The translations under genes and the position numbers were made by a program. Under the pieces are notes generated by a model. The model ran no database searches, had not been told where the DNA came from, and was given only the letters and a program-made list of their open reading frames with translations. From Tubulanus polymorphus (Eukaryota > Animalia > Nemertea): DNA of 64,000 nucleotides. Position 1 is the first letter of the stretch. The number at the start of each line of letters is the position of its first letter. Shown piece after piece: positions 7,312 to 64,000 of this stretch. The DNA lies in contig NC_134026.1 in NCBI RefSeq assembly GCF_964204645.1, positions 12,956,050 through 13,020,049 on the forward strand, given 5' to 3'.

Positions 7312-7342
7312 GTAAGCTCTTATAGAATAGATATATAAATAG

Positions 7343-9042: not shown

Positions 9043-9056
9043 CTTATTTTAATCCA

Positions 9057-11783: not shown

Positions 11784-11855
11784 TTATTATACATATTTTT
11801 TTACTAAATTGATTTTAGAAGTTATTCATTTATATGTTATTCATGAATACCTATG

Positions 11856-12245: not shown

Positions 12246-12252
12246 TTTATTA

Positions 12253-13170: not shown

Positions 13171-13202
13171 TTATTATATATATTTTTATTAAAGTTAAAA
13201 TT

Positions 13203-14446
13203 CGAATACATAACACTATCTAATTGTGTATTTACAATATTTAATTGCGCGTCAGATATAATATAAATGTGCATTTTGAAATTTAGGCTTCCTTTTTTCT
13301 TTGTCATGAATAATTGTATTCCATCTTTAGTGTTTTGTAATTTTTTTCCAGAACCATGTAATGAATTATCCTCTGTTGTTCTAAAATCTAACCATAATGC
13401 ATATTTATTACCGGTATAATAATCAATTTGATTAATGTTACAATTTTCAGATGATTTTACTTTTTCATTCATAAAATGTTTTCTAATTTCTGGCCACTGA
13501 TCTATCATTCTCGTTCCTTGACAAAATATTTTATTTGCTATTCCTTCGATAGTTATTTCTACTTTTGTTATTTCAGGATTATAATACTTATCAACCTGTA
13601 TTGCACCATTAGAATATGTTGCAATGGTAAAAAATATTAATATACCTTTAATAGATCTTCTTGGGAAGTTAATATTCTCATTAATTATTTCATCATTTGC
13701 ATAAATAGTTACAGTTTTAAATTTATCAATATAATCATATAATAATGAAAATCCTTGATTGTATTGAGTTTGAATTATACTTGTTTTCATCAGTTACTGT
13801 ATCATATTCTAAACATATATTTGATAATTTATAACTCATATCTTTAACAACGCTAGAATAATACAATTTCATTTACAGGAGCAAATGTTATCTCAAATAT
13901 AACATCTTCTTGAATTGCATATTTATATAAAGGCGCATTATTATTTATCAATTCAAAGTCTAATGGAATTTTATATTTGCTTCCATAAATCTTTTTTATC
14001 AAATTATCTGCGGTACGAGTTACTATTGCGTCATTAGCTCCTGATCTTAATTTACTTTGGTTTTCTGATTGGATGCCTTGAAATATCATATTATTTCTAT
14101 TTTCTTTAGTTAACCATAAATCTTTATAATGCATAAATAAATAATAATCATCTAATGAGAAAACTGTTTCTGGACCAATCTTTATTGTTAACTTTTTAAT
14201 CAAATATCTCCCAACATTATCAACAACATAATTATTATTATTACCGATTACTTTTATATCAGCTGATAAATAAATACTATTTGGAACGTAAAAAGTATTT
14301 TGTGTTAATCGAGGAATTCTAACATATAAAGTTTCATCAGGATTAATATTAGAAGGGTTATGAGTAATTATATGATGTGATCTTTCTGCTTTAATAGCAT
14401 TAGATATTCTAGAAATCTTAGAAGGACTTATATAACTCCCACTCAT
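13203..14446 (-). pseudogene. Major capsid protein (double jelly-roll/hexon-like), frameshifted
   Basis: ORFs 13853-14446 and 13095-13790 (ITHNPSNI...LYVRIPRL; RSIKGILIFF; YALWLDFRT..DNSLHGSG) fit the size and motifs of Polinton MCPs. The stop codon TAG seen in copy 2 is TCG here (13203-13205). Confidence 0.8.
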
Positions 14447-14469
14447 TTATTTAACAATAAAATTAATTA

Positions 14470-15915
14470 TTTATTTTTTATCATGGTTACTTGATATTTT
14501 TTGATATCATATTCACTAACCCAAAAATAATAGCACTTACAACTGTAATTAAAAATGAAATAATATGTTCAGCAGCAAACTTAAGAATATTCCCAGCAGA
14601 TTTCAATATAAAACCAACAATTGATGCAATAATTCCTGGTAAAGCTGCAGCAGATTTTTTAGATAGTTCTCATAAATATTTTGCTAATTTCTTTAAACCA
14701 TCCCTAACTTTATCTTGTATAGAATTATTATCTGGGGGTTTATCCGGTTTATTGGGAGTAGGAGTAGATTTTAAAGCATTTGATATAGCTAAACCAATTG
14801 TTGTGAATACTATAGTTACAGCTGTTAGAATTGAAAGAATTGTTATTTTTAAACTTAAATAATAATTTTATTCTATCTTTCAATGATATTTTAGAATTTG
14901 GTTTTATTAGATATCTTTTAAAAACATCTTTTAATCTATCAATATTATAATCATATGATTTTAATAATAATTTAATTTCTTCTTTTTGTAATTCTATGTT
15001 ATATTCTAAATCATCTTTTTCTTTTTCTAAACGTAATTCTTTTTGCCTATATTCTATTTCATCAATAACTTTATTATCTCTATCTAATTTTAATTGTTCT
15101 ATTTCTTTATTTTTATCAGTTAATTATTTTTCTAAAAATCTAATTTTAAAATCTCTTATTTCTTTTTCATGCGCAATTTTATCAGATGCAAGTCTTATAC
15201 TAATAATTTCTCTAATTGCTTTATCAGAAAATATATCTAAATCTTCTAATTCTTGATCTGTTGCATCAAGTAATCCCTTCGGTAAAAGTTTTTCAGTTTG
15301 AACTTCTCTTGAATTAGGTCTACTAGTTTCTGGTTCTAAATTATTATCGATTGTTTCAAATAATTTATTAATTCTTTGTTTAAATACTCTTTCATTTTTA
15401 ATAATTTCTTCTTGTGTTACATCTTCTATTTCATTATTATTCTTATTCTTTTAATTCTAGATAGTACTTAGTCAGACTTAAAGCAAAGTTGATTCTGCTA
15501 ATATTTTGTTTTGTTTTTTATAAGAGATATCAATATAATAATCACCTTTCAAACGATAATAAGATTCACCATCTAAAAACTTTAATTCTTGTACTAAAAG
15601 TCTGGCGCCTCTGGCATTTATATTATATCCAGATTTTTCAAATATAGGTTTGAAATTATGAATATATTCATTATATTCTAAATTTTCCTTTAATAAACCT
15701 GGATTTTCATTTTCAATAGGTATTCTAGATCTAGTTCTTCTATCAAATTCATCTGTTGATGGGCCTTTAGAACCACTATCTGCTAAATTAGAATTATATG
15801 CTGATTCATCATCATTATCAATATTAGTTTCTGCATCATTATAATCATCATCAATATATCCCTCATTATTATTTCCCATTTCTCCCATTTCATAATCTTC
15901 TCCACCTTCTGCCAT
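14470..15915 (-). pseudogene. Long acidic/coiled-coil protein with hydrophobic-amphipathic C-terminus, disrupted
   Basis: Starts MAEGGED (15915). The C-terminal frame reads ITILSILTAVTIVFTTIGLAI...AAALPGIIASIVGFILK. Homologous termini occur in copy 2. Confidence 0.65.
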
Positions 15916-15929
15916 TTACATAATACAAA

Positions 15930-17318
15930 AATTAAAATTTAAAATATAATATTCCTCCGATTACAATTCCTATACAAGTTATAGCTAATTTAGCATTTTT
16001 CATGGGATTTATTATCATCATTTAGTTTAATTATATCATGTTGAATAATATCAGTTTCTTTATTTTCTGATGTATTGTAATCTTTTATTTTAGAATCATT
16101 ATTTAATTTTATTAGTTTTAGTTTCTGTTGATTGAATGTGTTTTTTATTTTTTTCACTTTCCATTAATTTTGGAGCAGTGATAATCTTTTTATTCATATC
16201 ATTCAATCCAAATGAATTATTTATTGTTGCAGTATTAATTAGATTATTATAACCAATTATATTTCCCATCTTTAGTACTAAATCATTAGAAATAATGAAT
16301 AGATTAGGGCCTATACAATAATTTAATCTAATATGTGATTTATCTAAATAATTTTGATATCTTACAATGTTTTCTGGAATCGATCTATTTTTATCATTAT
16401 GAATTGAATCTTCAAATAATACTTTAAATTGTTTTTCTGTATCGAATGATGTATTCAAATTTCCAATTATCGGTGATCTTGTTTCAACTTGCGCACCTAG
16501 AATACATATCAAATAAGTTCTAATAGATTGATTTATTCTTTCTATACCTGATTTAGTAAAACCTTCACTATTTTCTAAAATAAAATAAACCCAACCATTA
16601 TTGTTTTCTTGTTTTAAATGATCATAAAATTTCGGTAATTTATTGAAATTTAATGTTTCTAAATCCTTTGTTTCTATTTTACCATAACCTAATTTATTAT
16701 TATAGATATTATAAAAACTATTAGATGGTATGGGAAGTGCACAATATTCTGCAATCTTTTTAGGGCAAGGAAGTGATCTTATTGTTCCAATTTTTGTTCT
16801 AAAATCAGAATTATTTATATCTATATTAAATTCATTACAAATTTTATAAAACTTTGATACATTAATATTATTATCTAATTCTTTAAAATATCTAGATCCT
16901 GGTAAAGCGCACTCTAATTCGTTTAATATTATTCTGATTTGAAAGTATGTATGAAATCTAAATAAACTTTGAATTAATTTATATTTAGAATTATTCAAAT
17001 GATCATTCCAACTTTCATTCCACATCCTGTTGTTGCACAATAAACAGCAAAATTTAATTGGTTCTGCCAATACTTCATATTAGATTTTAATAACCATTGT
17101 TTTTCATCTTTCAATTTTTTAAAATTAATTAAATATACATGAAATATATTTTCCATCTTTGCATTAAAATTATTAGTTTCAGTAACATAAATTTCTAAAT
17201 TAGTTAATGAATCTAAAACTTCATTTCTATATGTAATATCTTTATTAAAATCTATTGCTGGAATATTATATTTAATTGATTTATTATATTGGGAAGCTTT
17301 TGGAAAACTATCTACCAT
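15930..17318 (-). pseudogene. Conserved Polinton protein (WQNQLNFAVYCATTGCG family), frameshifted
   Basis: ORFs 16995-17318 and 16099-17070 join. Homologue at ~40770-42070. Probable C-terminal TM anchor near 15950-16000. Confidence 0.7.
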
Positions 17319-17334
17319 TTATATAATTAAAAAA

Positions 17335-17769
17335 TTAATAATTTATTAACTCTTTTAATAATTTATCTTGTTCTTCAACTGTTATATGGCCATTTAAACT
17401 CATTATATAATCTAGTGTATTCTTTAATTTATTAATTTCTTTTATATTAGTTTTAATTTTTTCTTTATTACTTTTTATATTTAATTTTGAACTTATACCG
17501 GTTAAAACACTTGAACTTAATCCTAATACGCCAATTGATATAGCTAAAGGTGTTAATGGACTGAATATTGCTAGAAATGTTATTACAGAACTAATTGTAA
17601 CCGAACCACTTATAATCAAATAATATATAATTTTACTTTTTAGATATTTTTTCTTTTTAACTTTTAAGTCACTTTCAAATTCTAATATTTGTTTTTCTAA
17701 ATATATTTTTAATTTAGTTTTATTTATATCATGAGGAATAATATCAATACTATCAACTTTATCTTCCAT
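17335..17769 (-). CDS. Two-TM coiled-coil membrane protein (possible adintovirus membrane-active protein)
   Basis: 144-aa ORF with a hydrophobic hairpin IIYYLIISGSV...LGLSSSVLTGIS flanked by basic coiled coils. A decayed homologue lies at ~42083-42520. Confidence 0.7.
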   Translation of the reverse strand: MEDKVDSIDIIPHDINKTKLKIYLEKQILEFESDLKVKKKKYLKSKIIYYLIISGSVTISSVITFLAIFSPLTPLAISIGVLGLSSSVLTGISSKLNIKSNKEKIKTNIKEINKLKNTLDYIMSLNGHITVEEQDKLLKELINY

Positions 17770-17788
17770 TTATTTAGAAAAAAAATTA

Positions 17789-18209
17789 CTAATAAGTAAA
17801 TTTATATGCTACAAATATAACAATAACTGTTCCACCTAAAATCCAAATTATTTCATATTTCTGTTGTTCTTTACTTGGGGTATAATAATCTGATAATTTA
17901 GGTTTGTATAGATGTAATTTTTCTTTATTGGTTACCGCGTTATATAAACTCATTGCATCATCGACTGATTGAAAATCTATGTGAAATCTTCTGATCATAT
18001 AATTCTTTATTGATGTAAACCATATAGTTTTGTCTCTTTTCTCTATATTCTTCTGCAGCTTTATTATATTTTTCTAATGCTAAGTTATGTCTTCTTTGTT
18101 CTCCTAATGAACTATTTTTATCAATATGTTTAAATAAATATCCACCACCAGTAAATGCTAAAGCGTTAACAATTGCCGATCCTATAATAGTTATAATTGC
18201 AGAAGCCAT
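17789..18209 (-). pseudogene. Small hydrophobic Polinton protein (MASAIITIIGSAIVNALAF), frameshifted
   Basis: ORFs 17958-18209 and 17789-17998 together equal the single 134-aa ORF at 42561-42965. Confidence 0.8.
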
Positions 18210-18233
18210 TTATTTAGAAAAATAATTACGCAT

Positions 18234-18455
18234 TTATATGGGAGGAATATATTTTTGTTTTTCCAAATAATCAATAGTTAAATTAGATAAAGTAATTGCT
18301 AATGCTAATTTTAAAATATCATTTATATCAAATCTATCAACATTAACACTTCCCATTTTGAATACTTTTTTTAATACCATTGAATAACCAACAGTTCCAA
18401 CTGATAGTAATGCTCCATTATATAATCCAGTTATTATCCACTTATTATCACTCAT
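18234..18455 (-). CDS. Small two-helix hydrophobic Polinton protein
   Basis: 73 aa with TAAATG start; conserved in copy 2 (43023-43211). Confidence 0.75.
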   Translation of the reverse strand: MSDNKWIITGLYNGALLSVGTVGYSMVLKKVFKMGSVNVDRFDINDILKLALAITLSNLTIDYLEKQKYIPPI

Positions 18456-18797
18456 TTATTTATCAAAAAAATTAATATCATCAAAATATTTAGTTATCTT
18501 AGTGATGATTAATTCAACATTTATTTCATTACTAGTTTTATGATTATCATATATTTTGGTTAATATGTTTTTAATATCATCAAAAATTCCATCTTCATTT
18601 AATTCATAATATTCTAAAGGCGATTTAATTAAATCAATTACTTTTTCTATATTATAATTTTCTTTATCAATCATTGATGCATTGTTAAATGATTTACTTT
18701 TTATATCAGTAATTACATCATTTAGTTTAATTCTCATTTCTTTACCATGTTTAAAATCAAACCCAAAACATATACTCGGGCCTACAGTTATATTCAT
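18456..18797 (-). CDS. Polinton hypothetical protein
   Basis: 113 aa; its stop abuts the next start (TAA-ATG). A decayed homologue lies at ~43212-43550. Confidence 0.7.
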   Translation of the reverse strand: MNITVGPSICFGFDFKHGKEMRIKLNDVITDIKSKSFNNASMIDKENYNIEKVIDLIKSPLEYYELNEDGIFDDIKNILTKIYDNHKTSNEINVELIITKITKYFDDINFFDK

Positions 18798-18816
18798 TTA
18801 TATAGTGAAAAAAAAA

Positions 18817-19575
18817 TTACTCTCTACATCTTATAACTAATTCATATATCACAGGAAAGTTATTCAAATCAATTAAATATCCATTATGATTTCTAATTTC
18901 TAATCTAAAATTATTAAAACGAGGAATGCATGGTTTGAAATCACATTCTGTTAAATTATAATTTATTTGCGTTCCAAATTCTTTAACATTCTTCAATGGT
19001 AAAATGTTTAATAAACCAGAATTACAAGTTATATCTTTAGTTGCTTCGAATGTTTTTGTAGGATCGATTAAATTGCAATAAATATAAAAGTGTGTAAAAG
19101 GTATTAAGTTTGGTGTAGCATCAGCATTGCGTATCCTTACATCTGGGGTTATTCCTAAAATTTTAGCTAAAGGTTTTTTAACTAGAAATTGATGTTGATC
19201 TTCATTACCTAATTTTATTCTTATTTTATCGGAGCTATCACTTTTAATCAGTCTTAATCCAAATCCAGCAGATGCACCCATTTTCAACCGAGCTCTTCTA
19301 TTAATTTCCTGCGCTAATGTATCTAAATTATATAATCCTGGTTTAAGATAAAGATGAAACCATTTACTTTTATTTCTATCATGAATTAAAAATACTCTAT
19401 GTTCAATAGTTTTATCCGATACATTGTAAAAAGAATTACATAAACTTATATTAACTAATTTTAAATCAACACAATTCTTAAATTCTCTATCTAATTGTAC
19501 TAGTAAATTATGAGATTTATAATTTGTAAGTCTTCTAGAATCTACAAATATTCTGTATTCTTTTAATTCTACCAT
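18817..19575 (-). CDS. Minor capsid protein (penton, single jelly roll)
   Basis: IFVDSR..NY...L.REFKN...LKLV; NSFYNV; PGLYN; FYIYCNLID; LEIRNHNG.LIDLN..P...EL match the Polinton/virophage penton pattern. Confidence 0.85.
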   Translation of the reverse strand: MVELKEYRIFVDSRRLTNYKSHNLLVQLDREFKNCVDLKLVNISLCNSFYNVSDKTIEHRVFLIHDRNKSKWFHLYLKPGLYNLDTLAQEINRRARLKMGASAGFGLRLIKSDSSDKIRIKLGNEDQHQFLVKKPLAKILGITPDVRIRNADATPNLIPFTHFYIYCNLIDPTKTFEATKDITCNSGLLNILPLKNVKEFGTQINYNLTECDFKPCIPRFNNFRLEIRNHNGYLIDLNNFPVIYELVIRCRE

Positions 19576-19592
19576 TTATTTTACATATTTTC

Positions 19593-19946
19593 TTATTCGA
19601 AATCTATTTCATGGTGCCCTTTTTCATTCTTACCTTTGTATACGAAATAGAAATCTCCAGAACATAATTTTTCTAGATCTTCACTTGATAATCTATGAAA
19701 TCTATCAGGTAAATATGTTCTGGATTTATATGTATTTCCTTTTAATCCTTCATATTCTAAGTGTATAACTAATTTATCTCCATAGTTATTAGTAACTGTA
19801 TCAATATTTGTAATTAGATATTTCTTATGGATTGTTAATTCTGTTAACTTTTTGAATTTATAATCTACAGATTTTACATTGGTAGTATCTTTTATTCTAT
19901 CTAGAAATGATTTGTTTTTCTCACTGTGCGCTTGTTTACTCTCCAT
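19593..19946 (-). CDS. Small beta-rich hypothetical protein (possible OB-fold ssDNA-binding protein)
   Basis: 117 aa, FKKLTEL..KKYLI...YGDKLVI.L...YLPDRF; lies directly downstream of PolB. The fold is inferred. Confidence 0.6.
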   Translation of the reverse strand: MESKQAHSEKNKSFLDRIKDTTNVKSVDYKFKKLTELTIHKKYLITNIDTVTNNYGDKLVIHLEYEGLKGNTYKSRTYLPDRFHRLSSEDLEKLCSGDFYFVYKGKNEKGHHEIDFE

Positions 19947-19975
19947 TTTAATAACATATTTTTATTAAAATTTGA

Positions 19976-22900
19976 TTAACACATTAGAATTCTTTTCATT
20001 ATCTCGTTCTCTTTTGTTTCTTCACTTTTAAATTTTAAGTATTCATCTAAATTACAACCATAAGCAACTGTATGAATTCCATCATCCAGAATATATCTTT
20101 TATCATCAAATGGGTTTGGACTTATCTTTTCAATTTCTTGAATAAATGTTTCATGATCTTCAGATCTTAAACATCTCATTTTATGTTTTCTAACTTCTTC
20201 ATTGAATATACAATTGATGTAATCTTTGAAATGAATATTCTTTTCTACTACACTTTTGGTTATTCCTTTTAACTTTTTAGCTTCATGTTCATTCATGTTT
20301 CATTCTGTAAAACTTCAGTTAATTCAAATACTCCATAAGGTTGTGGTTTCATCATTGCCCAACCATACAAATTATTTGCATCTATATATAATAACTTATA
20401 TCCAGGGTTATCATTTACATTGAAATATCTATCACCTAATACACCCGAAACTCCTCCTCTTATAGATTTTTCGAATAATAGTAATTGATCTATATTTGTT
20501 AACAAATCCATTTTTATATCTGTAAATTTTAATCCACAATCCCATGTTAATCCTGGTGATGAATAACAATGACATGGATCAATATTTAAATATTTTAGGT
20601 TTACATCTCTAAACCTTTCGAATATATCAGTTAATAATAATACATCTGATTTTAGATATAAATCTACTAATTGCCCATGATTTTCTATTTTGAAATGATT
20701 CCAAATATTCAATGTTCTATTATATACTTCATCTTTAACATATTCATTTTTTTAATTCATCATAGAATTGTTCTTTTAATAATTCAGTTATGTTAAAATC
20801 ATTATGATTTTTATAGAAAGAATATGGAATTGCTCCTTTATATCTCATTAATTGAAAATCATCATTATTTGGGTAGTGTTGCTTTAATATTTTTAATTCA
20901 TCATCAACTAATGATTTTGATAAGTTATCTAATGAACTATTTAAAAATCTATATGAATCTATAAATCTTAGACATCCAAATTGGAATGATATATAATTCT
21001 CAGATGTTTTAGCTAACATTCTAAATTTATAAGTTGGTATTTTATCTTTTGATCTATTTGAATTTAATCTTTCTATTTCATTATTGATTTCTTCTATTTT
21101 ATGGCATAACTGTTTGATGAATAAATGTGCATCATATCCTGATAGATTATGAAATATAACTGGTACAAAGTTAATTTTCTTAGCTTGTAAATTACAATTC
21201 TCATGCGCTGCGCCTGTAAACTTTCCATTCAAATGATCATGGTCTCTTACTTTTTTATCTTTATAATTAAATATCTTTTCACAATAATAACATTTATCTG
21301 CAAACTCAAATGCTTCTTTATCTTCTTCTGTCATTATAATTTCTATATTTGTATTCAATAATTTACTAAATCTTATTTCATATTCAATTAATAAGTCACA
21401 AAAATGATTGATAACATTTTCATTTCTATAATGATAATATTCACTTTCAATTAGTTCTGGATAATCAGATTTAATATATAACCCGAAAGCTGCAGCTGAT
21501 TGATGAATCTTTTTAATTGTATTTGTTATTGGTGGTTCATCTGAAAAATCATTTTCATTAGAATTTAATTTCTTTCTTTTATAATATATTTCTTTTCTAT
21601 CTTGATCAGTTAGTTCTTTATTTAATGATTCAAAATCTCCATATATTACAAATGGTACTTTATTTTTGTAATCATATTTTTTGAATTCTAATATTTTATC
21701 TTTTTCATTTGGTAAAACTAATTAACAATAATCATGATTTTCACATAATTGTTTATGATTTAATAATGTACTTTCATTACTGAATTTATGTAAACATTTT
21801 CTACAAAGATATATTTTATTATGGTGATCACTTTCTGTTCTAAAGAATAAATCTATTTGTTTAAAACTCATTCGCTGGGGATATATTTCTTCATTATCCA
21901 TTCAATCTGGGGGAATTAATTTTTTCTTCATATTTCAATGTAAAGGTCGATACATTTCCAGTGTAGAGACCCTCCTAAAACCAATATCTGTTATGAAGCT
22001 AATAGGTATCTCTACCAGAAAATGTTAGTTATAAAAAGTTTGGACCTACGGGTGCAAGGTAGACCCCAAAACCTGAGGTCAAGTTGAGGTCACGCAACCA
22101 AAAAAGTCGCCGACAACCAGTACATACTGCCTGTGTGTGTAGAGTATATACAATCGCTTGTGAGCTCTCTATAGAGCATGCTGACTCAGTGTAAGCAGCC
22201 AGACTCGACTAGTTTGCCATCTATCGGGGGTAATAGGAACCGTCACTTGAGGCGTGGCCACGACCCAGTTTCTTTGTTTACGCTGTCACGTGAGGCGTGA
22301 CGACGCCAACTGAATTCCACATATAATGATTCTTATAATATAGTATATCTATAACATCATTTGAATCATAATCTTTTGATAGGTATAAAGGTTCTAATGT
22401 ATAATATTTTATATTGTTACCTTTGTTAAATCAAATACATTTATCTTTATATTATTATCTCTTTCTATTTTTGGGATGTTTTTAATTCTAACAGGATACT
22501 TATCTATCTTATAATTATTTTCAAATGGTTTATAATGAGTTAATCTACAAATATTATAAGTTGCAGGATGTAAGCAACTTATTATAGCCCATAGAAAACA
22601 TTTATCATCTTCATTTTGTACATTTATAACAGCATTAGTTTTAAATGGTAGTTTAATATAACTCGATGCTTCAATATCTGGTTCTTTATAATATGATACA
22701 TTATTTTCATCAATTGGTTTTGATTTAGTTAACTTATTATATTTTGTGTTATAAACATGTAAAGTCATAAATATTATTTCATCAAATATTAAACCAGATC
22801 CTTCAAAATATTTCTCTTCTATTTTAGTTTTTACTTCATTATAACATTTATCTAATTTATCATCTATATGTTGTTTAGATAAAATATGTTGTGAATGAGA

Positions 22901-23516
22901 ATTTATATTATATATTGGTTTATCTTCAGATTTTATAAACTTTACTTTAGAAGATATACTAATTTTAGGATATTCAACATCAGTTATTATTTTTATTATT
23001 TCTTTCATATTTTCTAAATGTTTTTTGTTTTCTTCTAATGTTTTTCCTTTATGAAATTTAAACTCATAGCTGCTGGGCGAATATCACTTTTAAATGCTTC
23101 GGTTATCTCTATATCTTTTTTATTATCTAATGAATTAATATATTTTCTTACATCTTCCATGTATGATCTTTTATTGTTTAATTTATTTTTTATGCTTTTA
23201 ATTGTCTTCTGTTTCTTATCATTATCTTTATCAGAATAATCTTCACCTAAAATATCATTATTCTTATTTCTTATTTACTTTTAGATTTTAAATGTTCATT
23301 ATAATATCTTTTATCACTGAATGATTGATTACATGTATCACATTTATATGTTTCTTTTTCATTCTTTAATTCTTCTAATTTAGTTTCTAATATATCATCT
23401 TTATATTCTAGTTTCAATTTATTCTCTAAATGTGTTTTAGTTTTATTGTGTCTTGATTTTTGGGATTTATCTATATTGATATTACATGTTGGACAGTAGT
23501 ACTTCTTTGCTTCCAT
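19976..23516 (-). pseudogene. polB: Protein-primed DNA polymerase B, disrupted
   Basis: N-terminal C2H2 fingers (23271-23516), NEDDKCFLWAI, ExoI YGDFES, EndoVII-like CYYC...RDHDH..G..H..CN, ExoII FHNLSGYD, ExoIII YLKSDV, Pol motif A YIDANNLYG and C-terminal KGI...FDDKRY. Motifs B and C are missing (deleted); frameshifts and an insertion are also present. Confidence 0.93.
21863..22314. mobile_element. ~450-bp unclassified insertion in PolB
   Basis: A GC-richer block interrupts sequence that is contiguous in the second PolB copy (46381-46410). Confidence 0.7.
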
Positions 23517-23662
23517 TTTAATACTAAATTCTTTATTAAAATTGATTTTAGAAGTTCAATGATTTATATCATGTATTATTTCAATCACACTTTACTAACA
23601 CTTTTAATGTTTAAAATCTAACTCACACAAATATGAATATTGAAATAATGTTGTAAATATAT

Positions 23663-24041
23663 ACTTTTATATTGAATAATCTGTCAATTTATATGTTATT
23701 CATTTATATGATTATTTTAAGAGTAATAGGGATAATAGGCTTTCAGGTTAAAGGTTGAATGGTCGAGTTCATTAATAACAAATATTAAAAGTAATTTAAA
23801 ACTATAATATATTTTCATAACCGTGTGTATTTCAGTTGAATAATAGAATAATTATTATTATCAAAATATATTTGATTATATGCTTTTTAAATTATTGATA
23901 TCTTAGAATAAATATTTAGTTATAATATAAAATACACACGGTTATGAAAATATATTATAGTTTTAAATTACTTTTAATGTTTTGTTTTTAATGAACTCGA
24001 CCGTTCGACCTTTGATTTGAAAGCCTATTATCCCTATTACT
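23663..24041 (-). repeat. Right TIR of Polinton 1, containing an internal hairpin at 23722-24041
   Basis: Reverse complement of 6935-7311. Confidence 0.95.
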
Positions 24042-25451: not shown

Positions 25452-25508
25452 TTTTGTGAGAAATGCTACCAGTTAATCGTTAAACGCTAGAAGAAGACGA
25501 AGAGTAAA

Positions 25509-38125: not shown

Positions 38126-39420
<1,295 letters not shown>

Positions 39421-50744: not shown

Positions 50745-53700
50745 ATGAAGTCATTAATAGTTTGTCTATGTCTGGTCGCCAGTATTTTTGCCAAGGAACT
50801 GTTCTCTCAAAGAGAGTTAGCTGTCCTTCGAAATCTTGATAGAAGTGATTTGCCGAGGTACATTAAGACAGCGTTACGACGAATCCGTAGACAAGTACAA
50901 GGGTACGTAGGTGTTCCAACTTCAAATTTAAGTGAACTCCTGACAAGGGGATGGAAGATCAACAGTTTTTTTTTCTGTGAAATAATCTTGGTTCTACAAC
51001 TAGAAGTGGAGATAAATGGCATGGAAATACTGTCAAAATTGAAATAGCATTTTGACGCGTCAATCGACGCGTCAAACGACGCGTCAATCTACGCATCAAA
51101 TTCAGGGCATTGCTAGGGCAATTTAGGGCATTGCTTGAAAAATCTTTTTAATTCGTGACTTCAGGTAAGTTCCACAAGTTTATATTGTATTTTATCTTTC
51201 TTCAGGAATTATTTTGTAGTCAAATAAGACCAAAGATATACATTTGGTTACGGTCCGTGTCCAAAATTTTGTAGGGTACAGGTAGGCGCGGCAGGGAAAC
51301 TATTTAATATTTTCAAAAAAATATGTTTCACAATATGAAAAAAATATTCAAATAAGGCCATACCAAAATAATTGTCTGTTTGCCGTAACAACGAATGAAC
51401 TTTTCAGGATGAGTCGGAAGGTAGGTAGAAGGTAGGTAGGTTTTTTGCAAAATTTTTGGGCAAAAAAAAGAAACAAATTTACCACCTTTTTCACATGGAA
51501 ACAATATCGTAGAAATCATCTACGTTGTGCACGGGAATTTTGTCTAATAGCGTAGATTTCGAGAATTATTCCAAAATTATAACTTCGTCCAGAGCGGCAT
51601 CTCTGTGTTAAAAATGAAACAGTACATTGAATATGAGCGAGCGTTTACGTTACCAGCTTTAATATAGTCACTATGAGAATGAATGGCAGCTTATTGGAAC
51701 ACTGCCAGTTTCCTGGAAAACTTAAATTAGGCCACATGTCAAGGCATGTTTTCACACAATGCACACTTGAATTCAAACATACGTAGCACATACGTCGGCA
51801 GTGTGTCGGTCGGTCGGCCGTTTTTATCAAAAATAAAGTTTATTTCAATGAATCCCAGAAAAAAGTTTTCACTCGGTACCTTTGAAGTCGGGTCGGTCGG
51901 TCCTCGTTACCTCGTTGTCTCAAGGTCTCGTTGTATACACGTACTTAATACATGCATGCGAACGCCGTAGACACAAAGTCCTAATGGCTTTTTGGGCACC
52001 CGAGAGGACTCTGAAAAAAAATAAATCATTTTTTTAGCATATACAATGACTAGAACAAAAGCACCGGCAATATTTCACCACTGTATGTGTAACTTTCCTA
52101 AGCCAGGTTGTAAAGATGTCATCTTAGATGTCAAAAATAGGGCTGCTTAGGACCCCTTGAATGCACCCATGATACAGCACTTTGGAGAGTGATCTTGACA
52201 CACCTTTTTTATCAGTGGGTTATTACGCAATCGGCAGCCATCCTAGTATCTTCAGTCCTCGTTCATAGAAGGAAAACGGGTTTGTGGAGGATATCAACAG
52301 GTTTAACACATAATTACGTATGTTATTCGATAATTTGTATCTATCGTATGACACATCCCAATCGAATTGGGATTACCCGGTGTTGTATTATCTCACCAAA
52401 GGAGGGAAATTTTGAATAAAATACAATTTACCTTTTTTCATTGGTACCTATCCATATAAACAACAAAAGAAAAATTTCTTTTTATAGTGCAACTGGGCAC
52501 ATATTCATACGAATCATGCATTCAAGCTTTGTCAATTACTCATAGGAAGCCAAATTTTGAAAAGGCCCTTGATTAAATTGTTGTTCGCGAAAATCTGAAC
52601 GCAGAAATGTTGGAAAAAGCCTCTATGGTCGGCTTAGCCGCTGTCATGTGAACCCGCGGTATGTCTACTATATTACTTTCGCGTTTTATTTGGTTAAAGT
52701 GATCAATTGCGCGATCGGGACGAATAGTTATAAAATACGACGAAAATAACTTCGAATCAAATTCAATTTTAAACCGCATTCATATCAATTAGACAGGAAA
52801 AAACTCTAGTCTGTGGTATTCGTTCCTGCCATCTCCCCGTTGCGACTTGTAAAAACACGATTGAACTGTGTTAATCCACGGGGCTCGTATCAGAGTTGCA
52901 GTGTAAAAATGATAATCTGTTAATTCAATGTCTATAGTATATATAAAATAACAAGGGGCTAACGACGCTCACAAACTACTCAGCTTCAGTCACTTACTGT
53001 TCCTTTATTTCTCATCCAATTTCGATAATTTCGGGCATGATATGAAAGCTAATAGCTTCCTGCTTCTGACGAAATTAATCCCTTTAACTTCCAATGAATA
53101 GTTCGTGAACAAATATAGAATGTTTTGTGTATTTGAAGCTCACGATCATCAAAATCGGTGAAAGACTTCGCGTCGAACTGAACGTTTTAAATTTCGAAAT
53201 CGGCAAAAACCGGCGTCATAGCATTTTCGGTCCAGGCAATTTCGGCCCCAATTTCGCGTTCAAAGACGTATAACTATTCTTTGGAAATTAATGGGATTAG
53301 TTTCCTTAGAAGCAGGAAGCTATTAGCTTTCACATCATGCCCGGATTATTGAAATTAGATGAGAAATAACGAAATAGTAAGTGACTGAAGTTGAGTAGTT
53401 TCTGAGCGTTGTTAGTCCCCTTGTTGAGACGAGGAGATACACAATATCCGTGTAAGATGATAACGAGAGAAATTCCACGATAAATCCAGCCATGACCAAA
53501 AACCTGAAAAGAAGAGTATATATATTTGCGCAACTTTTTGGCTAAAGACTATTAGCCATCATCAGGCGTACTGAGAATAGGAGAATACTACACGATAATT
53601 ATACAAGACCAAACTGAGTGAGTGATTACAATGTTAGTAATAGGGAATATAGGGGTTCAGATCAAAGGTCGTAAGGTCGAAAAATAAATTCTCGCACACT

Positions 53701-56700
53701 CGAATTTATCTTTCGACCATCCAACCTTTGATCTGAACCCCTATATTCCCTATTACTTAAAGTTTAAATGTGTTAAATTTTTGATTTTAACATAAAAAAG
53801 TACGAGTAATTAACAAGTGTAAACTTGCGTCGAGAAAACAGTGAATATTTATATTTGTATGTGTTAAATTCTTATTTTAACATAAAAGTAACGAGTAATA
53901 AAAAATTTGATATTAAAATGGAAGCAAATAAGTACTACTGCCCGACATGTAAAATCAATATAGATAAATCTCAAAAATCAAGACACAATAAAACTAAATC
54001 TCACTTAGAAAATAAATTAAAATTAGAATATAAAGATGAAATATTAGAAAATAAATTAGAAGAATTAAAGAATGAAAAAGAAATATGTAAATGTGATAAG
54101 TACTACTGTCCAACATGTAAAATAAATATAGATTAACCTCAAAAATCAAGACATGATAAAACTAAATCTAACTTAGAAAATAAATTAAAGTTAGAATATA
54201 AAGATGAAATTCTAGTTCTATTTGAATTCTAGTTTTTCTATCTTCTTCATTCTATCTTTTTCATTTTCAAACTTAACTTGAATTATACAGTTTATCATTC
54301 AATTCATGAATATATTTATGAGTTTTTAAACTCTTTTCATTTTTATACCTTTTATTACATATTTCCAGCATTTAATATTATTAATTCGATCTGATAGATA
54401 ATTTATATTTTCTTTTAATTCTGTATATTTAATTTTACAGCTATCATAGAATTCTAACATCTGTTTCAATGAGTAAACTGAGAAAGAAAATAAACCTGAA
54501 ATCATAATTAATTTAATATTCTGTTGATTTCTGTAAATAAGATGTAATATTTCTAATACCTTACTTTCACTCATTTTTGTAGTTAAAATATATAAATTAA
54601 ATTAGATTAAAAGATGCTGTTTATATCCTCTAATTCTTTTAAACCATTAACTTTTTATGATTATTTTTATTTCCATTTAACTTCTTTAATTTCTTGCTCA
54701 ATTTAATATTTTCATTCATTAGATCCTTACTAATATTTTCATAATAGAAATATAATGCAGCCAATATTAACCCTCCTGCTATAAGATAATGCTTCAAATC
54801 ACTTTTCCCAATTGGAATGCTGAAATCTTCCATTTAATTAAGAGAAAAATTAAACAGTTTATAAAATATTAGATAATTAGTGTTGAATTATTATTTTTGA
54901 GTTATGATATTTTGATTTAAGATGGTGTGATTTATTGCTTCGAGTATAATATTTTCCACAATTACATAACACCTTTTCATTAGGTTCATATTTAGGTGTT
55001 TCGATTATATCGTCTAAGTTACATTGAATTCCAACATCTTTATATGATTTTTCATTTGGAATGTCAGGGTTAAATCTGTTTTCTTCTACTCTGAAAAACA
55101 TTACATAGCATTCTCTGAAAGGACAATAACGTAAGTGTAGAAATAATGATTTATCTTAATTTTCATTATTAAAAAGTGATTGCATTTCATCTGTAATTAT
55201 TAAATGTTTAACTGTTTCATCAAATCTTGTGAATTTTGGAATAATTGTATTGAATAAGATTTTATCTTTATCATTCGATAACTCTATTATTAGATAATGA
55301 TTTTTAAACATTGATTCGGTAATATTTTTCACTTGAAAACGGAAACGTCCAGTTTTAATCAAATCTTTAATAGGAATGAAATTTTTAATTGTAAAATATT
55401 TTTCTAATTCATTTAAATCGATATCTTTAAACTGTAGTATCTGTTCACTCATTTATTAGTCATTTTTTTTATTTAAATGGATATTTTCTTCAGTACTCGT
55501 TACTTTTTATATGGTGGACAGTAGTACTTATCACATTTATATATTTCTTTTTCATTCTTTAATTCTTCTAATTTATTTTCTAATATTTCATCTTTATATT
55601 CTAACTTTAATTTATTTTCTAAGTGAGATTTAGTTTTATTGTGTCTTGATTTTTGAGATTTATCTATATTGATTTTACATGTCGGACAGTAGTACTTATT
55701 TGCTTCCATTTTAATATCAAATTTTTTATTAAAATTGTTATTTTCTTCAACTCGTGAATTCCTCGTTACTTTTATGTTAAAATAAAAATTTAACACATAC
55801 AAATATAAATATTCACTGTTTTCTCGACGCAAGTTTACACTTGTTAATTACTCGTACTTTTTATGTTAAAATCAAAAATTTAACACATTTAAACTTAAAG
55901 TAATAGGGAATATAGGGGTTCAGATCAAAGGTTGGATGGTCGAAAGATAAATTCGAGTGTGCGAGAATTTATTTTTCGACCTTACGACCTTTGATCTGAA
56001 CCCCTATATTCCCTATTACTAATGTTGAAGGGGAATAGAATCAAGTAAGGACATAACAGCTGGAAAACAATAGTAAATAGTAAAGAAAGCAAAGGCAAAC
56101 TAGGGGCAATATAGATTAAAGAATTTTAAAAACAAAAGACACAAACTTAAGTGATTAAAACGTAAGGACAAGCTAAGGGGTAATCAGATGAAAACAAAGA
56201 GAAGGCACATGAAAGGCTTTGATCTATTACACTTCAACATTTTAATCCCTCACTCTGTTTCTATTGTTTTGGTATTTTCTAATAGTCTTTAGCCGAAACT
56301 TTGCCCAAAAGTTTATACTCTTCCATTCAAGTTTCTCGTTTTGGCTGAATTTATCGTATGATTTCTCGCGTTAGCCCCCCTTGTTATTTTATATATGCTA
56401 TAGACATGGGATAAACAGATTACCAGATCAACAGATTGGATTAATAGATTATATTACCTACAACTCTGATACGAGCCCCTGTGTGTAAATCACACTGAGC
56501 GAAAAGTGTATTTTGGCAAATGTAACCCACAGATTGCATTGCACCATGGTGGATCATTCGTTGTAATTATCTGGATTGGATTCCATAGCCTCGCGATTTG
56601 TATCTTAACTTGCCACAATGTGTTATTCTTTATTATTGGAAATTTGCAATAGCTCGTGTTTGGCCTGTATGGAATAAGGAGGTGGTGTTTCATTTTTATT

Positions 56701-60600: not shown

Positions 60601-61039
60601 AGGCCGGTTAGTAACAGGGATAATAGGGGTTCAAGCCAATGGTCGAAAGGTCAAAAAATAAATTCTCGCACACGAATTTATTTTTCGACCTTTCAACCTG
60701 TGAACTGAACCCCTATTATCCCTATTACTCTTGAAATATTCATATAAAGGAACATTATTTAAATGAATTTCATATATTTTAAAATAAATTTCATGTTTTA
60801 AAAGTGAGAGTAAAATGTTAGCATAATAAACTAGAAAAATAAGATCAAATATAGATTTCGAATGATAAAAAATCAATTTTTAACATAAAAAGTGTGAGTA
60901 AAGTGTGAGTGAAATAATTCATATTTAAAACAGTGAATATTTATATTTATATGCGTTAAATTCTTATTTTCAATATAAAAATAACGAGTAATTAACAAGT
61001 TGAAGAAAATATCAATTTTAATAAAAAAATGACTAATAA

Positions 61040-61621
61040 ATGAATGAACAGATACTACAGTTCAAAGATATCTTTTTAATTGAATTAGAAAAATATTTTA
61101 CAATTAAAAATTTTATTCCTATTAAAGATTTCATTAAAACTGGACGTTTTTGTTTTCAAGTGAAAAATATTACTGAATTAATGTTTAGAAATAATTATCT
61201 AATAATAGAGTTATCGAATGATAAAGATAAAATCTTATTCAATACAATAACTCCAAAATTAACAACATTTGATGAAATAGATCAACATTTAATAATTACA
61301 GATGAAATACAATCACTTTTTGATAATGAAAATTCCCATAAATCTTTATTTCTACACTTACGTTATTGCCCTTTCAGAGAATGCTATGTAATGTTTGTCA
61401 AAGTAGAAGAAGAAAGATTTACCCCTGCCATTCCAAATGAAAAATCATTCAAAGATGTTGGAATTCAATGTAACTTAGATAATGAAATTGTTACACCTAA
61501 AGAGAAATATGAACCTAATGAAAAAGCGTTATGTAATTGTGGAAAATATTATACTCGAAGCAATAAACCACACCATCTTAAATCAAAATATAATAACTCA
61601 AAAATAATAATTCAACTCTAA
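61040..61621 (+). CDS. Cargo gene A: 193 aa, unknown N-domain, DVGIQC motif, C-terminal CxCG..H..(H) zinc finger
   Basis: Intact ORF with TAAATG start; three copies in the window. Confidence 0.8.
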   Translation: MNEQILQFKDIFLIELEKYFTIKNFIPIKDFIKTGRFCFQVKNITELMFRNNYLIIELSNDKDKILFNTITPKLTTFDEIDQHLIITDEIQSLFDNENSHKSLFLHLRYCPFRECYVMFVKVEEERFTPAIPNEKSFKDVGIQCNLDNEIVTPKEKYEPNEKALCNCGKYYTRSNKPHHLKSKYNNSKIIIQL

Positions 61622-61672
61622 ATATTCAAAATAAGATATTTCAAATTACTTTTAATTCTTTCTCTCAAATAA

Positions 61673-61876
61673 ATGGATGGTTTCAGCATTCCAATTGGGA
61701 AAAGTGATTTAAAACATTATTTAGTTGCTGGAGGTTTAATATTAGCTGCACTTTACTTTTACTATGAAAATATCGGTAAGGATCTAATGAATAAAAATAT
61801 AAAATTGAGTAAAAAGTTAAAAAAGAAATTCAATGAAAACAATAATCGAAATAAAAAAGTTATTGAATCAGATTAG
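61673..61876 (+). CDS. Cargo gene B: single-TM peptide
   Basis: TAAATG start; conserved in three copies. Confidence 0.75.
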   Translation: MDGFSIPIGKSDLKHYLVAGGLILAALYFYYENIGKDLMNKNIKLSKKLKKKFNENNNRNKKVIESD

Positions 61877-61896
61877 TGAATTAATTAAATAATCAA

Positions 61897-62199
61897 ATGA
61901 GTGAAAATATATTAAGTTTATTACATCTAATATATAAAAATCAACAGAATATTAAATTAATCATTATGCTTACAGGATTAGTTTCATTTTCAATTCATAG
62001 TATAAAACAGATGTTAGAATTTTGTGATTCTTGTAAAATTAATTATACAGAATTGAAAGATAACATAAATTATATTTCAGATAGAATTAATAATATTAAG
62101 TGTTGTGATATATGCAATAAAAAATATAAAAATAAAAAGAGTTTAAAAACTCATAGATATATTCATGAATTAGATGAGAAATTACATAATTCAAATTAA
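61897..62199 (+). CDS. Cargo gene C: hydrophobic segment, coiled coil and C2H2 zinc finger
   Basis: CDICNKKYKNKKSLKTHRYIH. Confidence 0.78.
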   Translation: MSENILSLLHLIYKNQQNIKLIIMLTGLVSFSIHSIKQMLEFCDSCKINYTELKDNINYISDRINNIKCCDICNKKYKNKKSLKTHRYIHELDEKLHNSN

Positions 62200-63240
62200 G
62201 TTTGATAATGAAAAAGATTAATTTCTATTTACATATTGATGGACGAATTGGACGAATGGACGAGTGGACGAGGGTACGAGACGGGGGTCTTATATTCAAA
62301 TAAACCCCTATGTCTTCACAGATTTATCATATGCATATTTGTAACTAATATATTTTATATTTTCAGCTAATATAATTTATATTTTATTAAAATGATATTT
62401 AAATATCGTATAAAATTGATAAAATCACTTAAAATCAAACTCGTACTGTTTTTTTAATAAAAACATATGTAAATCATATATTATTACACTCGTACCATTC
62501 GTCCAATTCGTCCACTCGTTCACTCATACACATTCAAAATCCTCTCATTTTCCAAATTATGATTTTATTTTATAAATTTATATTCATATGATATTAGTGG
62601 TATCTTTACGCAGCACTAGAATAATACGAGTGATACTAAGTTAGTTGGTTTATTGTTTTTCTCGTCAAATGTAAAGTCATTTAGTATTAAAAAGAATTAA
62701 TAAAAAAACATTAGAAAAACAATAGGTGTCTTTAACAACACTAGCTTATTCAATTGTATTGTTTTTCTAGTTGAATCTATTCAAAATATCATTTAACCCA
62801 GTGAGCAAAAAGAAACAATAACTAGTCTTATTTTAAAGATAAGCATCATATTCTTTACGCACCACTAGAATATGATATTTATCTAGTGCTGCGTAAAGAA
62901 TATGATATTGAGCGTAATAATATATGATTTACATATGTTTTTATTTAAAAAACAGTACGTGTTTGATTTTTAGTTATGTTATCAATTTTATACTATATTA
63001 AAATATTAATTTAATAGAATATAAATTATATTAGCTGAATATATAAAATATATTAGTTAAAAATATGCATATGATAAATCTGTGAAGACATGGGGGTTTA
63101 TTTGAATATAAGACCCCCCTCTCGTACCCACGTCCACTCGTCCGTTCGTCCAATTCGTCCAATCGTCCATCAATGTGTAAATAGAAATTAATCTTTTTCA
63201 TTATCAAACTTAATTTGAATTATGTAATTTCCCATTTAAT

Positions 63241-63486
63241 TCATGAATATATCTTATGAGTTTTTAAACTCTTTTCATTTTTATATTTTTTATTGCATAT
63301 ATCACAACACTTAAATATGTGATCTTTTAATTCTGTATATTTAATTTTACAAGAATCATAAAATTCTAACATCTGTTTTATACTATAAATTGAAAATGAA
63401 ACTAATCCTGAAAGCATAATGATTGATTTAATATTCTGTTGATTTTTGTATATTAGTTGTAGTAAATTTAATATATTTTCACTCAT
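63241..63486 (-). CDS. Cargo gene C, inverted arm (internal deletion)
   Basis: Homologue of 61897-62199. Confidence 0.7.
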   Translation of the reverse strand: MSENILNLLQLIYKNQQNIKSIIMLSGLVSFSIYSIKQMLEFYDSCKIKYTELKDHIFKCCDICNKKYKNEKSLKTHKIYS

Positions 63487-63490
63487 TTAA

Positions 63491-63709
63491 TTATTTAATT
63501 AATTCACTAATCTGATTCAATAACTTTTTTATTTCGATGATTGTTTCCATTTTTGATTTCTTTAACTTTTTACTCAATTTTATATTTTCATTCATTAGAT
63601 CCTTACTGATATTTTCATTGTAAAAGTTAAGTGCAGCTAATATTAAACCTCCAGCAACTAAATAATGTTTTAAATCACTTTTCCCAATTGGAATGCTGAA
63701 ACCATCCAT
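63491..63709 (-). CDS. Cargo gene B, inverted arm
   Basis: Homologue of 61673-61876 with a C-terminal frameshift. Confidence 0.7.
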   Translation of the reverse strand: MDGFSIPIGKSDLKHYLVAGGLILAALNFYNENISKDLMNENIKLSKKLKKSKMETIIEIKKLLNQISELIK

Positions 63710-63752
63710 TTAAAAAAATCAAAAGTAATTTGAAATATCTTATTTTGAATAT

Positions 63753-64000
63753 TTAGAGTTCAATTATTATTTTTGAGTTATGATATTTTGATTTAAGATG
63801 GTGTGATTGATTGCTTCGAGGATAATATTTTCCACAATTACATAACGCTTTTTCATTAGGTTCATATTTCTCTTTAGGTGTAACAATTTCATTATCTAAG
63901 TTACATTGAATTCCAACATCTTTGAATGATTTTTCATTTGGAATGTCAGGGGTAAAAACATTACATAGCATTCTCTGAAAGGGCAATAACGTAAGTGCAG
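63753..64000 (-). pseudogene. Cargo gene A 3' part, inverted arm (frameshifting deletion; 5' end outside window)
   Basis: DVGIQCNL...CNCGKYY..SHHLKSKYH; deletion after CYVMF. Confidence 0.75.

What the first reader, a model, noticed from the sequence alone, without database searches (positions are those of the whole stretch)
60610..64000. Whole-element palindrome: cargo cassette duplicated tail-to-tail behind a hairpin end
Seen: hairpin terminus, promoter, A-B-C, then a ~420-bp spacer (~62490-62910), then the reverse complement C-B-A. The arms are similar but not identical (substitutions, indels). Inference: TIR expansion by template switching during protein-primed or hairpin replication turned nearly the whole element into an inverted repeat, like snap-back defective-interfering genomes. 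The 53636 element, with ~500-bp TIRs, looks like an intermediate stage.
Basis: partly seen in the sequence, partly recalled or inferred. Interest (0 to 1): 0.8.

Follow-up and report, generated by a model that had tools for sequence, protein, structure and literature searches.

The report
Mirror-image mini-Polinton with three genes
In an animal genome, a small relative of virus-like Polinton transposons carries a three-gene block twice, as mirror-image arms around a 418-base centre; it likely arose when the copying enzyme turned back along its own new strand, but its far end lies outside the sequence examined and is unconfirmed.

Summary
The anatomy is real: a terminal hairpin (60610-60729), ORFs A-B-C, a 418-bp centre, then C-B-A inverted. 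The arms differ at 51 of 1,080 positions plus 7 indels. The hairpin end is shared with a 17-kb Polinton/Maverick (6935-24041) and a 2.4-kb derivative (53636-56020) in the same window, both with 6-bp target duplications. So this is a non-autonomous Polinton derivative.

Arm differences are neutral (dN about dS) and symmetric (15 vs 16 private changes), while B and C were under purifying selection between lineages. The arms therefore started near-identical and decayed in place; a fold-back read artefact is unlikely. No inner terminus exists.

Best reading (0.55): one copy-back element of about 4.1 kb, integrated by a helper Polinton. The closing hairpin and TSD CCGGTT, predicted near 64,740, could not be read, as no genome is held. 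The 53636 element is a younger, parallel end-copying event, not an intermediate. The ends show no flip-flop, which favours protein-primed over rolling-hairpin copying (weak).

TIR extension is in print for Galileo and mentioned for Polintons. This scan has noted palindromic Polinton satellites in several other animal genomes. New variant, moderate interest.

The parts
60604..60609 (+). CCGGTT, predicted left copy of a 6-bp target-site duplication (partner not readable)
   Evidence: sequence; the two complete sister elements in the window have 6-bp TSDs directly outside the same AGT...ACT ends
60610..60729 (.). terminal imperfect hairpin, AGT...ACT, left end of the element
   Evidence: 104 of 122 columns identical to the 53636 element's hairpins; 83-84% over 44-46 nt and over 80 nt to the 17-kb Polinton's end
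60730..61039 (+). AT-rich upstream region, likely promoter (by likeness only)
   Evidence: 60876-60937 is 86% like 23617-23555, upstream of the Polinton's first gene; 60878-61028 is 81% like the 53636 element
61040..61621 (+). ORF A, 193 aa, orphan with a C-terminal CxCG...H..KYH zinc-finger-like motif
   Evidence: no Pfam or PHROG family; no hit among 71 candidates; 2 weak hits to residues 146-191 only, E 3e-6 and 8e-4; omega 0.63 against the 53636 copy, not significant
61673..61876 (+). ORF B, 67 aa, orphan with a moderately hydrophobic stretch from residue 17
   Evidence: best 19-residue hydropathy 1.29; omega 0.04 over 50 codons against the 53636 copy
61897..62199 (+). ORF C, 100 aa, hydrophobic stretch plus C2H2-like finger
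   Evidence: zf-C2H2 and zf-met hits at E 0.003-0.005, below the curated cut-offs; no homologue; omega 0.18 against the 53636 copy
62200..62491 (+). non-coding inner part of arm 1 with GGACGA-type short repeats; absent from the 53636 element
   Evidence: a contig of run X1 fits this arm-1 version (record 2)
62492..62909 (.). 418-nt centre, Polinton-related non-coding mosaic
   Evidence: 26-nt exact match (62565-62590) to the last codons of the Polinton ATPase gene at 7343-7368 (best of 300 shuffles: 18 nt) and a 50-nt 84% match to 10112-10160; no ATPase coding remnant beyond that; many variant contigs lie on it
62845..62906 (.). small fold-back hairpin directly at the centre/arm-2 joint, candidate scar of the template switch
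   Evidence: its motif recurs at 62603-62626
62910..64000 (-). arm 2: inverted copy of the inner region, C (63486 down), B (63709 down) and the 3' part of A, with indels; cut by the window end
53636..56020 (.). related 2.4-kb non-autonomous element: hairpin ends, 486-nt TIRs that include part of a zinc-finger gene, one A-B-C block on -, TSD AATGTT
6935..24041 (-). 17.1-kb decayed Polinton/Maverick of the presumed helper kind: 380-nt TIRs each starting with a 318-320-nt hairpin, TSD ACCGTA
   Evidence: Pox_A32 ATPase E 3e-12, rve integrase E 1e-7 (32.2 bits, cut-off 32.6), PolB_2 fragment E 0.001, Capsid_N E 0.005

Best explanation
This is a non-autonomous Polinton/Maverick derivative whose three-gene end block is present twice in mirror image, likely because a helper's protein-primed polymerase copied about 2.3 kb inward from one end and then switched to its own new strand, giving one copy-back molecule of a predicted 4.1 kb that a helper integrase would have inserted with a 6-bp target duplication. 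Shown: Polinton-type left end, no core genes, inverted arms that started near-identical, no inner terminus, a small hairpin at the centre/arm-2 joint. Inferred: that the right end exists (about 64,740, followed by CCGGTT); that the switch happened outside the chromosome, in this copy or in its master copy; that the helper is a Polinton with these ends; and that A-B-C are accessory genes from one end of such a Polinton lineage. After insertion both arms decayed neutrally.
For: (1) The end is shared with two complete elements that have perfect 6-bp TSDs (ACCGTA, AATGTT), one of them with A32 ATPase, rve integrase, PolB and capsid remnants. (2) No Polinton ORF matches 60610-64000: of 21 ORFs tested, only the zinc-finger gene matched, and only in the 53636 element. 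(3) The arms are sisters: 90 of 782 three-way columns unite both arms against the 53636 copy; 15 changes are private to arm 1 and 16 to arm 2. (4) Arm differences are neutral, 24 non-synonymous to 4 synonymous (pN 0.041, pS 0.032), unlike 64 to 48 between lineages (Fisher P=0.005). (5) At the 19 listed variant sites in the coding part, the arms agree at 14 of the 15 family-polymorphic sites (1 is a gap); at the 4 sites where the contig pool is at least 99% another letter, arm 1 has the pool letter. (6) No AGTAA(T/C)(A/T)GGG terminus lies between 60730 and 64000. (7) The arm-1/centre joint exists in X1 both exactly (109 nt, 0 differences, only 26 nt on the arm side) and in another copy (78 nt, 6 differences, 34 and 44 nt on the two sides), so arm 1 plus centre is a family layout. 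(8) The 53636 element shows an end copied over the other end, stopping at a short microhomology inside the zinc-finger gene.
Against: The decisive right end is unread. No contig was obtained that joins centre and arm 2, so it is not shown that the palindrome is a family layout rather than a single event (details under Tried and rejected). The arms are three to four times more diverged than the TIRs of the two complete elements (4.7% against 1.1% and 1.4%); this may be age alone but gives no sign of arm homogenisation. Judged against the 53636 copy, the sizeable indels (22, 8 and 27 nt lost, 1 nt gained) all fall on arm 2, while arm 1 keeps three open frames. A-B-C occur in neither Polinton of the window, so the parent carrying them is unseen. 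Sister arms with neutral, symmetric decay are equally expected from an in-situ inverted duplication or from a long-TIR parent.
Confidence: 0.55

Rival explanations
1. One element, but made by ordinary internal deletion: an autonomous Polinton already carried A-B-C inside both of its roughly 1.9-kb TIRs and lost all but 418 nt of its interior.
For: The centre begins with the ATPase gene's last codons 74 nt from arm 1; in the 17-kb Polinton the same codons lie 29 nt from the TIR. Published TIRs reach 1,447 bp (PMC8097293, passages) or 1,500 bp (PMC10748475, passages). All arm statistics fit equally well.
Against: In the 53636 element A-B-C is single-copy and outside the TIR. The TIRs seen here are 380 and 486 nt. 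The centre/arm-2 joint carries a fold-back hairpin. A 1.9-kb TIR exceeds both published ranges.
Confidence: 0.17
2. A one-armed element inserted first, and its left part was then duplicated in inverted orientation inside the chromosome by repair or replication template switching, as proposed for Galileo's extended TIRs.
For: Arm 1 plus centre is a multi-copy layout. The arms would be identical at birth and decay neutrally and symmetrically, as seen. The mechanism is described for Galileo 2RT copies (PMC3573991, passages).
Against: It needs a second rare event at this locus. The younger 53636 element has an extended, 98.6% identical TIR with a clean TSD, which shows that end-copied molecules of this family do get inserted whole.
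Confidence: 0.12
3. Two separate copies of the same subfamily inserted tail-to-tail or nested, and the inner ends were deleted.
For: The window is dense in Polinton-derived pieces: five in 64 kb. Copies from one burst would also differ only by neutral changes.
Against: No inner terminus or remnant of one. Equal ages (15 vs 16). Both arms belong to the same sub-lineage although the contig pool is polymorphic at many sites.
Confidence: 0.08
4. Assembly artefact: a fold-back chimera, or a false join of two real copies at the small hairpin 62845-62906.
For: The indel load is one-sided on arm 2. No read-level proof of the right joint was obtained.
Against: A fold-back read gives identical arms. These differ by 51 substitutions split evenly between arms, and arm-1 private letters are present in an independent contig. 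Only a false join of two real copies remains open.
Confidence: 0.08

Closest known systems
Polintons/Mavericks (adintoviruses) of animals; PMC10748475, PMC8097293, PMC6431247 (passages read)
   Same: AGT...ACT ends shared with a 17-kb Polinton in the window; sister elements make 6-bp TSDs; AT-rich; intronless ORFs.
   Different: Predicted 4.1 kb instead of 13-25 kb; no pPolB, integrase, ATPase or capsid gene; about 91% of the length would be inverted repeat; three orphan genes duplicated in the arms. The passages read mention neither non-autonomous forms nor hairpins. From memory only, Kapitonov and Jurka 2006 and Repbase list non-autonomous Polintons with long TIRs; that paper was not held.
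Galileo copies with extended TIRs (2RT), Drosophila mojavensis; PMC3573991 (passages read)
   Same: Internal sequence recruited into the TIR so that a non-autonomous copy becomes TIR-F1-F1-TIR; the longest TIRs are in non-autonomous copies. The paper states that inverted-repeat expansion has also been reported for Polintons (its refs 12, 43, 48; not read).
   Different: Galileo is a cut-and-paste P-superfamily transposon; the proposed route is chromosomal repair; TIRs reach about 1.26 kb; the passages read describe spacer DNA, not whole genes, being recruited.
Copy-back / snap-back defective viral genomes (PMC6140465, passages) and AAV snapback genomes (PMC8235507, abstract only)
   Same: One genome end plus adjacent sequence repeated in reverse complement around a loop; helper-dependent; AAV 5' snapback genomes hold the promoter and part of the first gene.
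   Different: Those are free RNA or ssDNA virus products; this is a chromosomally integrated, decayed dsDNA insertion of a protein-primed element. Its origin during replication is inferred.
Endogenous virophages and PLVs of Halocafeteria seosinensis with terminal palindromes; bioRxiv 10.64898/2026.07.28.741278 (passages read)
   Same: Palindromes inside the TIR, directly next to the TSD; fragments that keep TIRs and TSDs after losing core genes.
   Different: There the palindromes are short (52 nt in the figured subtype) and go mostly with non-pPolB elements of a protist; here they are 120-320 nt and also sit on a PolB-bearing animal Polinton. No whole-element palindrome appears in the passages read.

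Membership tests
Polinton/Maverick (autonomous) | protein-primed PolB gene | tested here: not met
   no match of the window Polinton's PolB-region ORFs in 60610-64000; no Pfam hit. About 740 predicted bases are unread.
Polinton/Maverick (autonomous) | rve integrase gene | tested here: not met
Polinton/Maverick (autonomous) | packaging ATPase and capsid genes | tested here: not met
   only a 26-nt match to the ATPase gene end; a profile of 120 ATPases scores the centre at 2.5 bits at best, inside the range of 200 shuffles (top 7.5)
Polinton/Maverick (autonomous) | length 13-25 kb | tested here: not met
   3.4 kb seen, 4,133 nt predicted if symmetric; range from PMC10748475
Non-autonomous Polinton derivative | terminal sequence shared with a Polinton of the same genome | tested here: met
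   83-84% identity to the ends of the 6935-24041 element. It starts AGTAA, not the vertebrate (AGT)2 motif of PMC8097293.
Non-autonomous Polinton derivative | TIR at both ends | not testable with these tools
   right end is beyond the window; no genome held
Non-autonomous Polinton derivative | 6-bp target-site duplication | not testable with these tools
   left CCGGTT only; met in 2 of 2 complete sister elements; not met by the lone hairpin at 45466
Non-autonomous Polinton derivative | multiple dispersed copies | tested here: met
   second A-B-C copy in the window; 574 X1 contigs laid on 62492-64000, with up to 16 contigs per variant site. Met for the parts; not shown for the whole palindrome.
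Copy-back / snap-back defective genome | one end and adjacent sequence repeated in reverse complement around a loop | tested here: inconclusive
   1.1 kb of inverted arm and the 418-nt loop are shown; the terminal 740 nt are unread
Copy-back / snap-back defective genome | made by polymerase template switching and replicated by a helper | not testable with these tools
   inferred from the joint hairpin and the 53636 element
Rolling-hairpin replicon (parvovirus/AAV type) | terminal hairpins found in both flip and flop orientation (feature recalled from memory) | tested here: not met
   same orientation in 3 of 3 independent comparisons: 316/320 vs 266/333 flipped; 122/122 vs 106/122; 104/122 vs 96/122. 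Small sample.
Rolling-hairpin replicon (parvovirus/AAV type) | Rep/HUH nickase in element or helper | tested here: inconclusive
   none among 34 ORFs scanned against Pfam; the helper is decayed

The most novel reading that the evidence does not exclude
Animal Polintons routinely throw off copy-back genomes like defective-interfering viruses. This one is a dispersed family of 4-kb palindromic satellites that keeps three accessory genes under selection in double dose, with inward-facing promoters that would yield hairpin RNA, inside Polintons whose own TIRs begin with 120-320-nt hairpins. The 53636 and 60610 elements would then be two independent fossil template switches that record how these never-cultured animal viruses copy their ends.
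Probability: 0.3. Interest if true: 0.7.

Novelty: new variant of a known kind. Interest (0 to 1): 0.45.

Why it matters
Polinton replication is known only from models. Integrated end-copied and copy-back forms are fossil products of that replication. Here two of them sit next to a helper-type element, and same-orientation hairpins at both ends favour panhandle, protein-primed copying over rolling-hairpin copying. If the palindrome is a dispersed family, it is a defective-interfering-like satellite of an endogenous animal DNA virus that kept its own genes, and a predicted source of hairpin RNA against its relatives. If it is a single event, it is one more case of TIR extension, already described for Galileo.

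Tried and rejected
Reading past 64,000: no genome is held. Public runs: 2 hold the stretch (X1, share 0.52; X2, share 0.21; one study), both as short contigs, so no long-range test was possible.

Missing cover, not used as evidence: X1 and X2 have no cover at 62886-62904, the centre/arm-2 joint. In X1 the window's own letter has no depth at 7 arm-2 sites (62960, 62978, 63017, 63130, 63628, 63761, 63821) and 2 centre sites (62790, 62810), whereas arm-1 letters and the exact left joint are present. Grouped by me after the fact into likely contigs, this is 3 of 3 for the left part against 0 of 6 for the right part (Fisher P=0.012). The tool states that such contigs drop rare variants, that records are filtered out and that a hole proves nothing. 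It could equally mean that X1 is a haplotype lacking arm 2. It leaves the right joint unverified. Summed contig depths are not copy numbers and were not converted.

Centre as a decayed ATPase gene: rejected beyond 26 nt (profile search within the shuffle range). Homologues: A none (lengths 106-338 aa only, viral contigs), C none (55-175 aa only); B was scanned only against Pfam and PHROGs. The ESM Atlas gave no answer for A. Single-sequence fold of A: pLDDT 31.6, unusable, so no fold search was run. End motif in viral contigs: 5 hits, none with an inverted partner, treated as chance; metagenomes: 0.

Literature: 10 full-text searches listed no paper that, by title and abstract start, describes whole-element palindromic Polintons. 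Most hits were seen as listings only, and supplements were not read. Kapitonov and Jurka 2006 and Krupovic and Koonin 2015 were not held, and Jurka et al. 2007 was not read, so absence from print is not established. PMC11296320, PMC8502044 and PMC5499653 (passages) gave nothing on this layout.
Full report
Setting. The window is animal DNA; scan notes on the same genome call the host a ribbon worm (not checked). Host-like DNA is about 39% GC and the elements are about 24%. No whole genome is held, so nothing past 64,000 could be read.

Observation. A 120-nt imperfect hairpin, AGT...ACT, occupies 60610-60729, preceded by CCGGTT. ORFs A (193 aa), B (67 aa) and C (100 aa) follow on +. 61352-62491 is repeated in reverse complement at 62910-64000 around a 418-nt centre. 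The arms differ at 51 of 1,080 paired positions and by 7 indels. Arm 2 has lost 22, 8 and 27 nt relative to both arm 1 and the 53636 copy. If the element is symmetric it ends near 64,742, is 4,133 nt long and is 91% inverted repeat.

What the ends are. The same end occurs on two complete elements in the window. One spans 6935-24041 (17.1 kb), has 380-nt TIRs with 4 substitutions, each beginning with a 318-320-nt hairpin, and TSD ACCGTA. It encodes an A32-type ATPase (E 3e-12), an rve integrase (E 1e-7, just under the curated cut-off) and weak PolB and capsid remnants. These are the marks of a decayed Polinton/Maverick as defined in PMC10748475 and PMC8097293 (passages). The other spans 53636-56020, has 486-nt TIRs with 7 substitutions and TSD AATGTT. 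The 60610 end is 83-86% like both. None of 21 Polinton ORFs matches 60610-64000. The finding is therefore a non-autonomous Polinton derivative, not a Polinton.

Are the arms one event? Three tests say that they started near-identical. First, each arm is 13-14% from the 53636 copy but 4.7% from the other arm; of 782 three-way columns, 90 unite the arms, 15 are private to arm 1 and 16 to arm 2. Second, arm-arm coding changes are 24 non-synonymous to 4 synonymous (pN 0.041, pS 0.032), which is neutral. Between lineages B and C were under purifying selection (omega 0.04 and 0.18), like the Polinton's own genes (0.14 and 0.15 in two controls); A was not significantly so (0.63, with low dS) (Fisher P=0.005). 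Third, against contigs of a public run of the organism, the arms agree at 14 of 15 listed family-polymorphic coding sites (1 is a gap), and at the 4 sites where arm 2 stands alone arm 1 has the common letter (the table printed 40 rows and withheld 5). A fold-back read artefact would give identical arms. An X1 contig fits arm 1's private letters (131 nt, 11 differences from arm 2, the number arm 1 has). No terminus motif lies between the arms, which counts against two whole insertions. These tests do not separate a palindrome inserted whole from an inverted duplication made in place.

The centre. It is Polinton-related: a 26-nt exact match to the ATPase gene's last codons (best of 300 shuffles, 18 nt) and a 50-nt 84% match elsewhere in the Polinton. 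It is not a recognisable ATPase pseudogene. The arm-1/centre joint occurs in X1 exactly and in at least one other, diverged copy, so arm 1 plus centre is a family layout. The centre/arm-2 joint carries a 62-nt fold-back hairpin whose motif recurs at 62603, a plausible scar of a template switch. That joint could not be verified in the contigs; see Tried and rejected for the full result, which does not favour my reading.

The 53636 element. Its left end carries a zinc-finger gene 88-90% identical to the Polinton's first gene. Its right end carries the same hairpin, upstream region and first 205 nt of that gene, then switches at a short microhomology to the tail of the region upstream of A, followed by A-B-C once. 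So one end was copied over the other. This shows that TIR extension happens in this family and that such molecules are inserted with a clean TSD. It is not an intermediate on the way to the 60610 element: a different gene was duplicated, the cassette lineage differs by 13-14%, and its TIRs are younger (P=0.001).

Mechanism. Most likely (0.55), a helper's protein-primed polymerase started at the A-B-C end, copied about 2.3 kb, switched to its nascent strand near the small hairpin and copied back. A helper integrase then inserted the product, and both arms decayed. With a 418-nt loop this is 'copy-back' in the terms of PMC6140465 (passages). Hairpins have the same orientation in 3 of 3 end comparisons, which fits panhandle copying better than rolling-hairpin copying; the sample is small and the flip-flop criterion is recalled. 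Rivals: internal deletion of a long-TIR parent (0.17), in-situ inverted duplication (0.12), two insertions (0.08), false join (0.08).

The genes. A, B and C have no family in Pfam above cut-off or in PHROGs. A and C have no homologue in the large protein collection within the lengths searched. A has two weak hits confined to its C-terminal zinc-finger-like motif. Selection on B and C shows that they were working genes of the mobile lineage. Their function is unknown; small zinc-finger and hydrophobic accessory proteins is the most that the data allow. Expression was not tested.

Novelty. TIR extension into internal sequence is described for Galileo, and that paper says it has been reported for Polintons (PMC3573991, passages). 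Terminal palindromes inside TIRs are described for protist virophages and PLVs (bioRxiv 10.64898/2026.07.28.741278, passages). AAV snapback genomes are a close functional analogue (PMC8235507, abstract). Ten searches listed no paper on whole-element palindromic Polintons, but the founding paper was not held, and I recall non-autonomous long-TIR Polintons from it and from Repbase. This scan's unchecked notes list palindromic Polinton satellites in several other animal genomes; they are leads, not support. What is particular here is the small size, three selected genes in both arms, nested terminal hairpins and a parallel end-copying event nearby. I class it as a new variant of a known kind, interest 0.45, held down by the unread right end.

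Noticed in passing
window 6935-24041: Complete-ended, decayed Polinton whose 380-nt TIRs each begin with a 318-320-nt near-perfect hairpin; a PolB-bearing animal Polinton with long terminal palindromes. It also holds an endonuclease VII/HNH-like ORF at 11193-11783 (PHROG 1035, E 1e-14).
   Followed up: partly
window 12009-12093: 85-nt inverted copy of the ATPase gene's 3' end inside the Polinton, next to short tandem repeats; another sign of end-proximal template switching.
   Followed up: partly
window 36641-48434: Second, more decayed Polinton, about 87% like the first over its central genes, without visible TIRs.
   Followed up: no
window 45466-45603: Stand-alone 138-nt hairpin of the same end family, inside the PolB region of the second Polinton; flanks CATTAG and ATTATA do not match as a TSD.
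   Followed up: partly
window 52910-56425: The 53636 element sits inside an older small inverted-repeat element (arms 52910-52964/56369-56425 and 53461-53555/56279-56373, plus an internal 155-nt inverted repeat).
   Followed up: no
window 25192-31256: BEL/Pao LTR retrotransposon with 261-nt LTRs at 95.4% identity and a broken gag-pol.
   Followed up: no
window 32818-35610: Broken Pif1-type helicase plus endonuclease ORFs, Helitron-like (label recalled).
   Followed up: no
window 4075-6912: Three overlapping orphan ORFs on - (326, 409, 230 aa) that start right beside the Polinton's left TSD; probably one broken transposon gene.
   Followed up: no
window 57016-57652 and 58647-58893: A diverged tandem repeat of about 141 nt and a 247-nt imperfect hairpin in the flank.
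   Followed up: no
window 61040-62199 against 54270-55460: Synonymous distance between the two A-B-C lineages differs strongly by gene (A 0.12, C 0.59, B 1.35), which suggests recombination between lineages.
   Followed up: no
X1 contigs on window 62492-64000: Single contigs show other rearranged copies: a joint from 62836 to 63900 on opposite strands, skips 63612-63724, 63657-63778 and 62662-62721.
   Followed up: no
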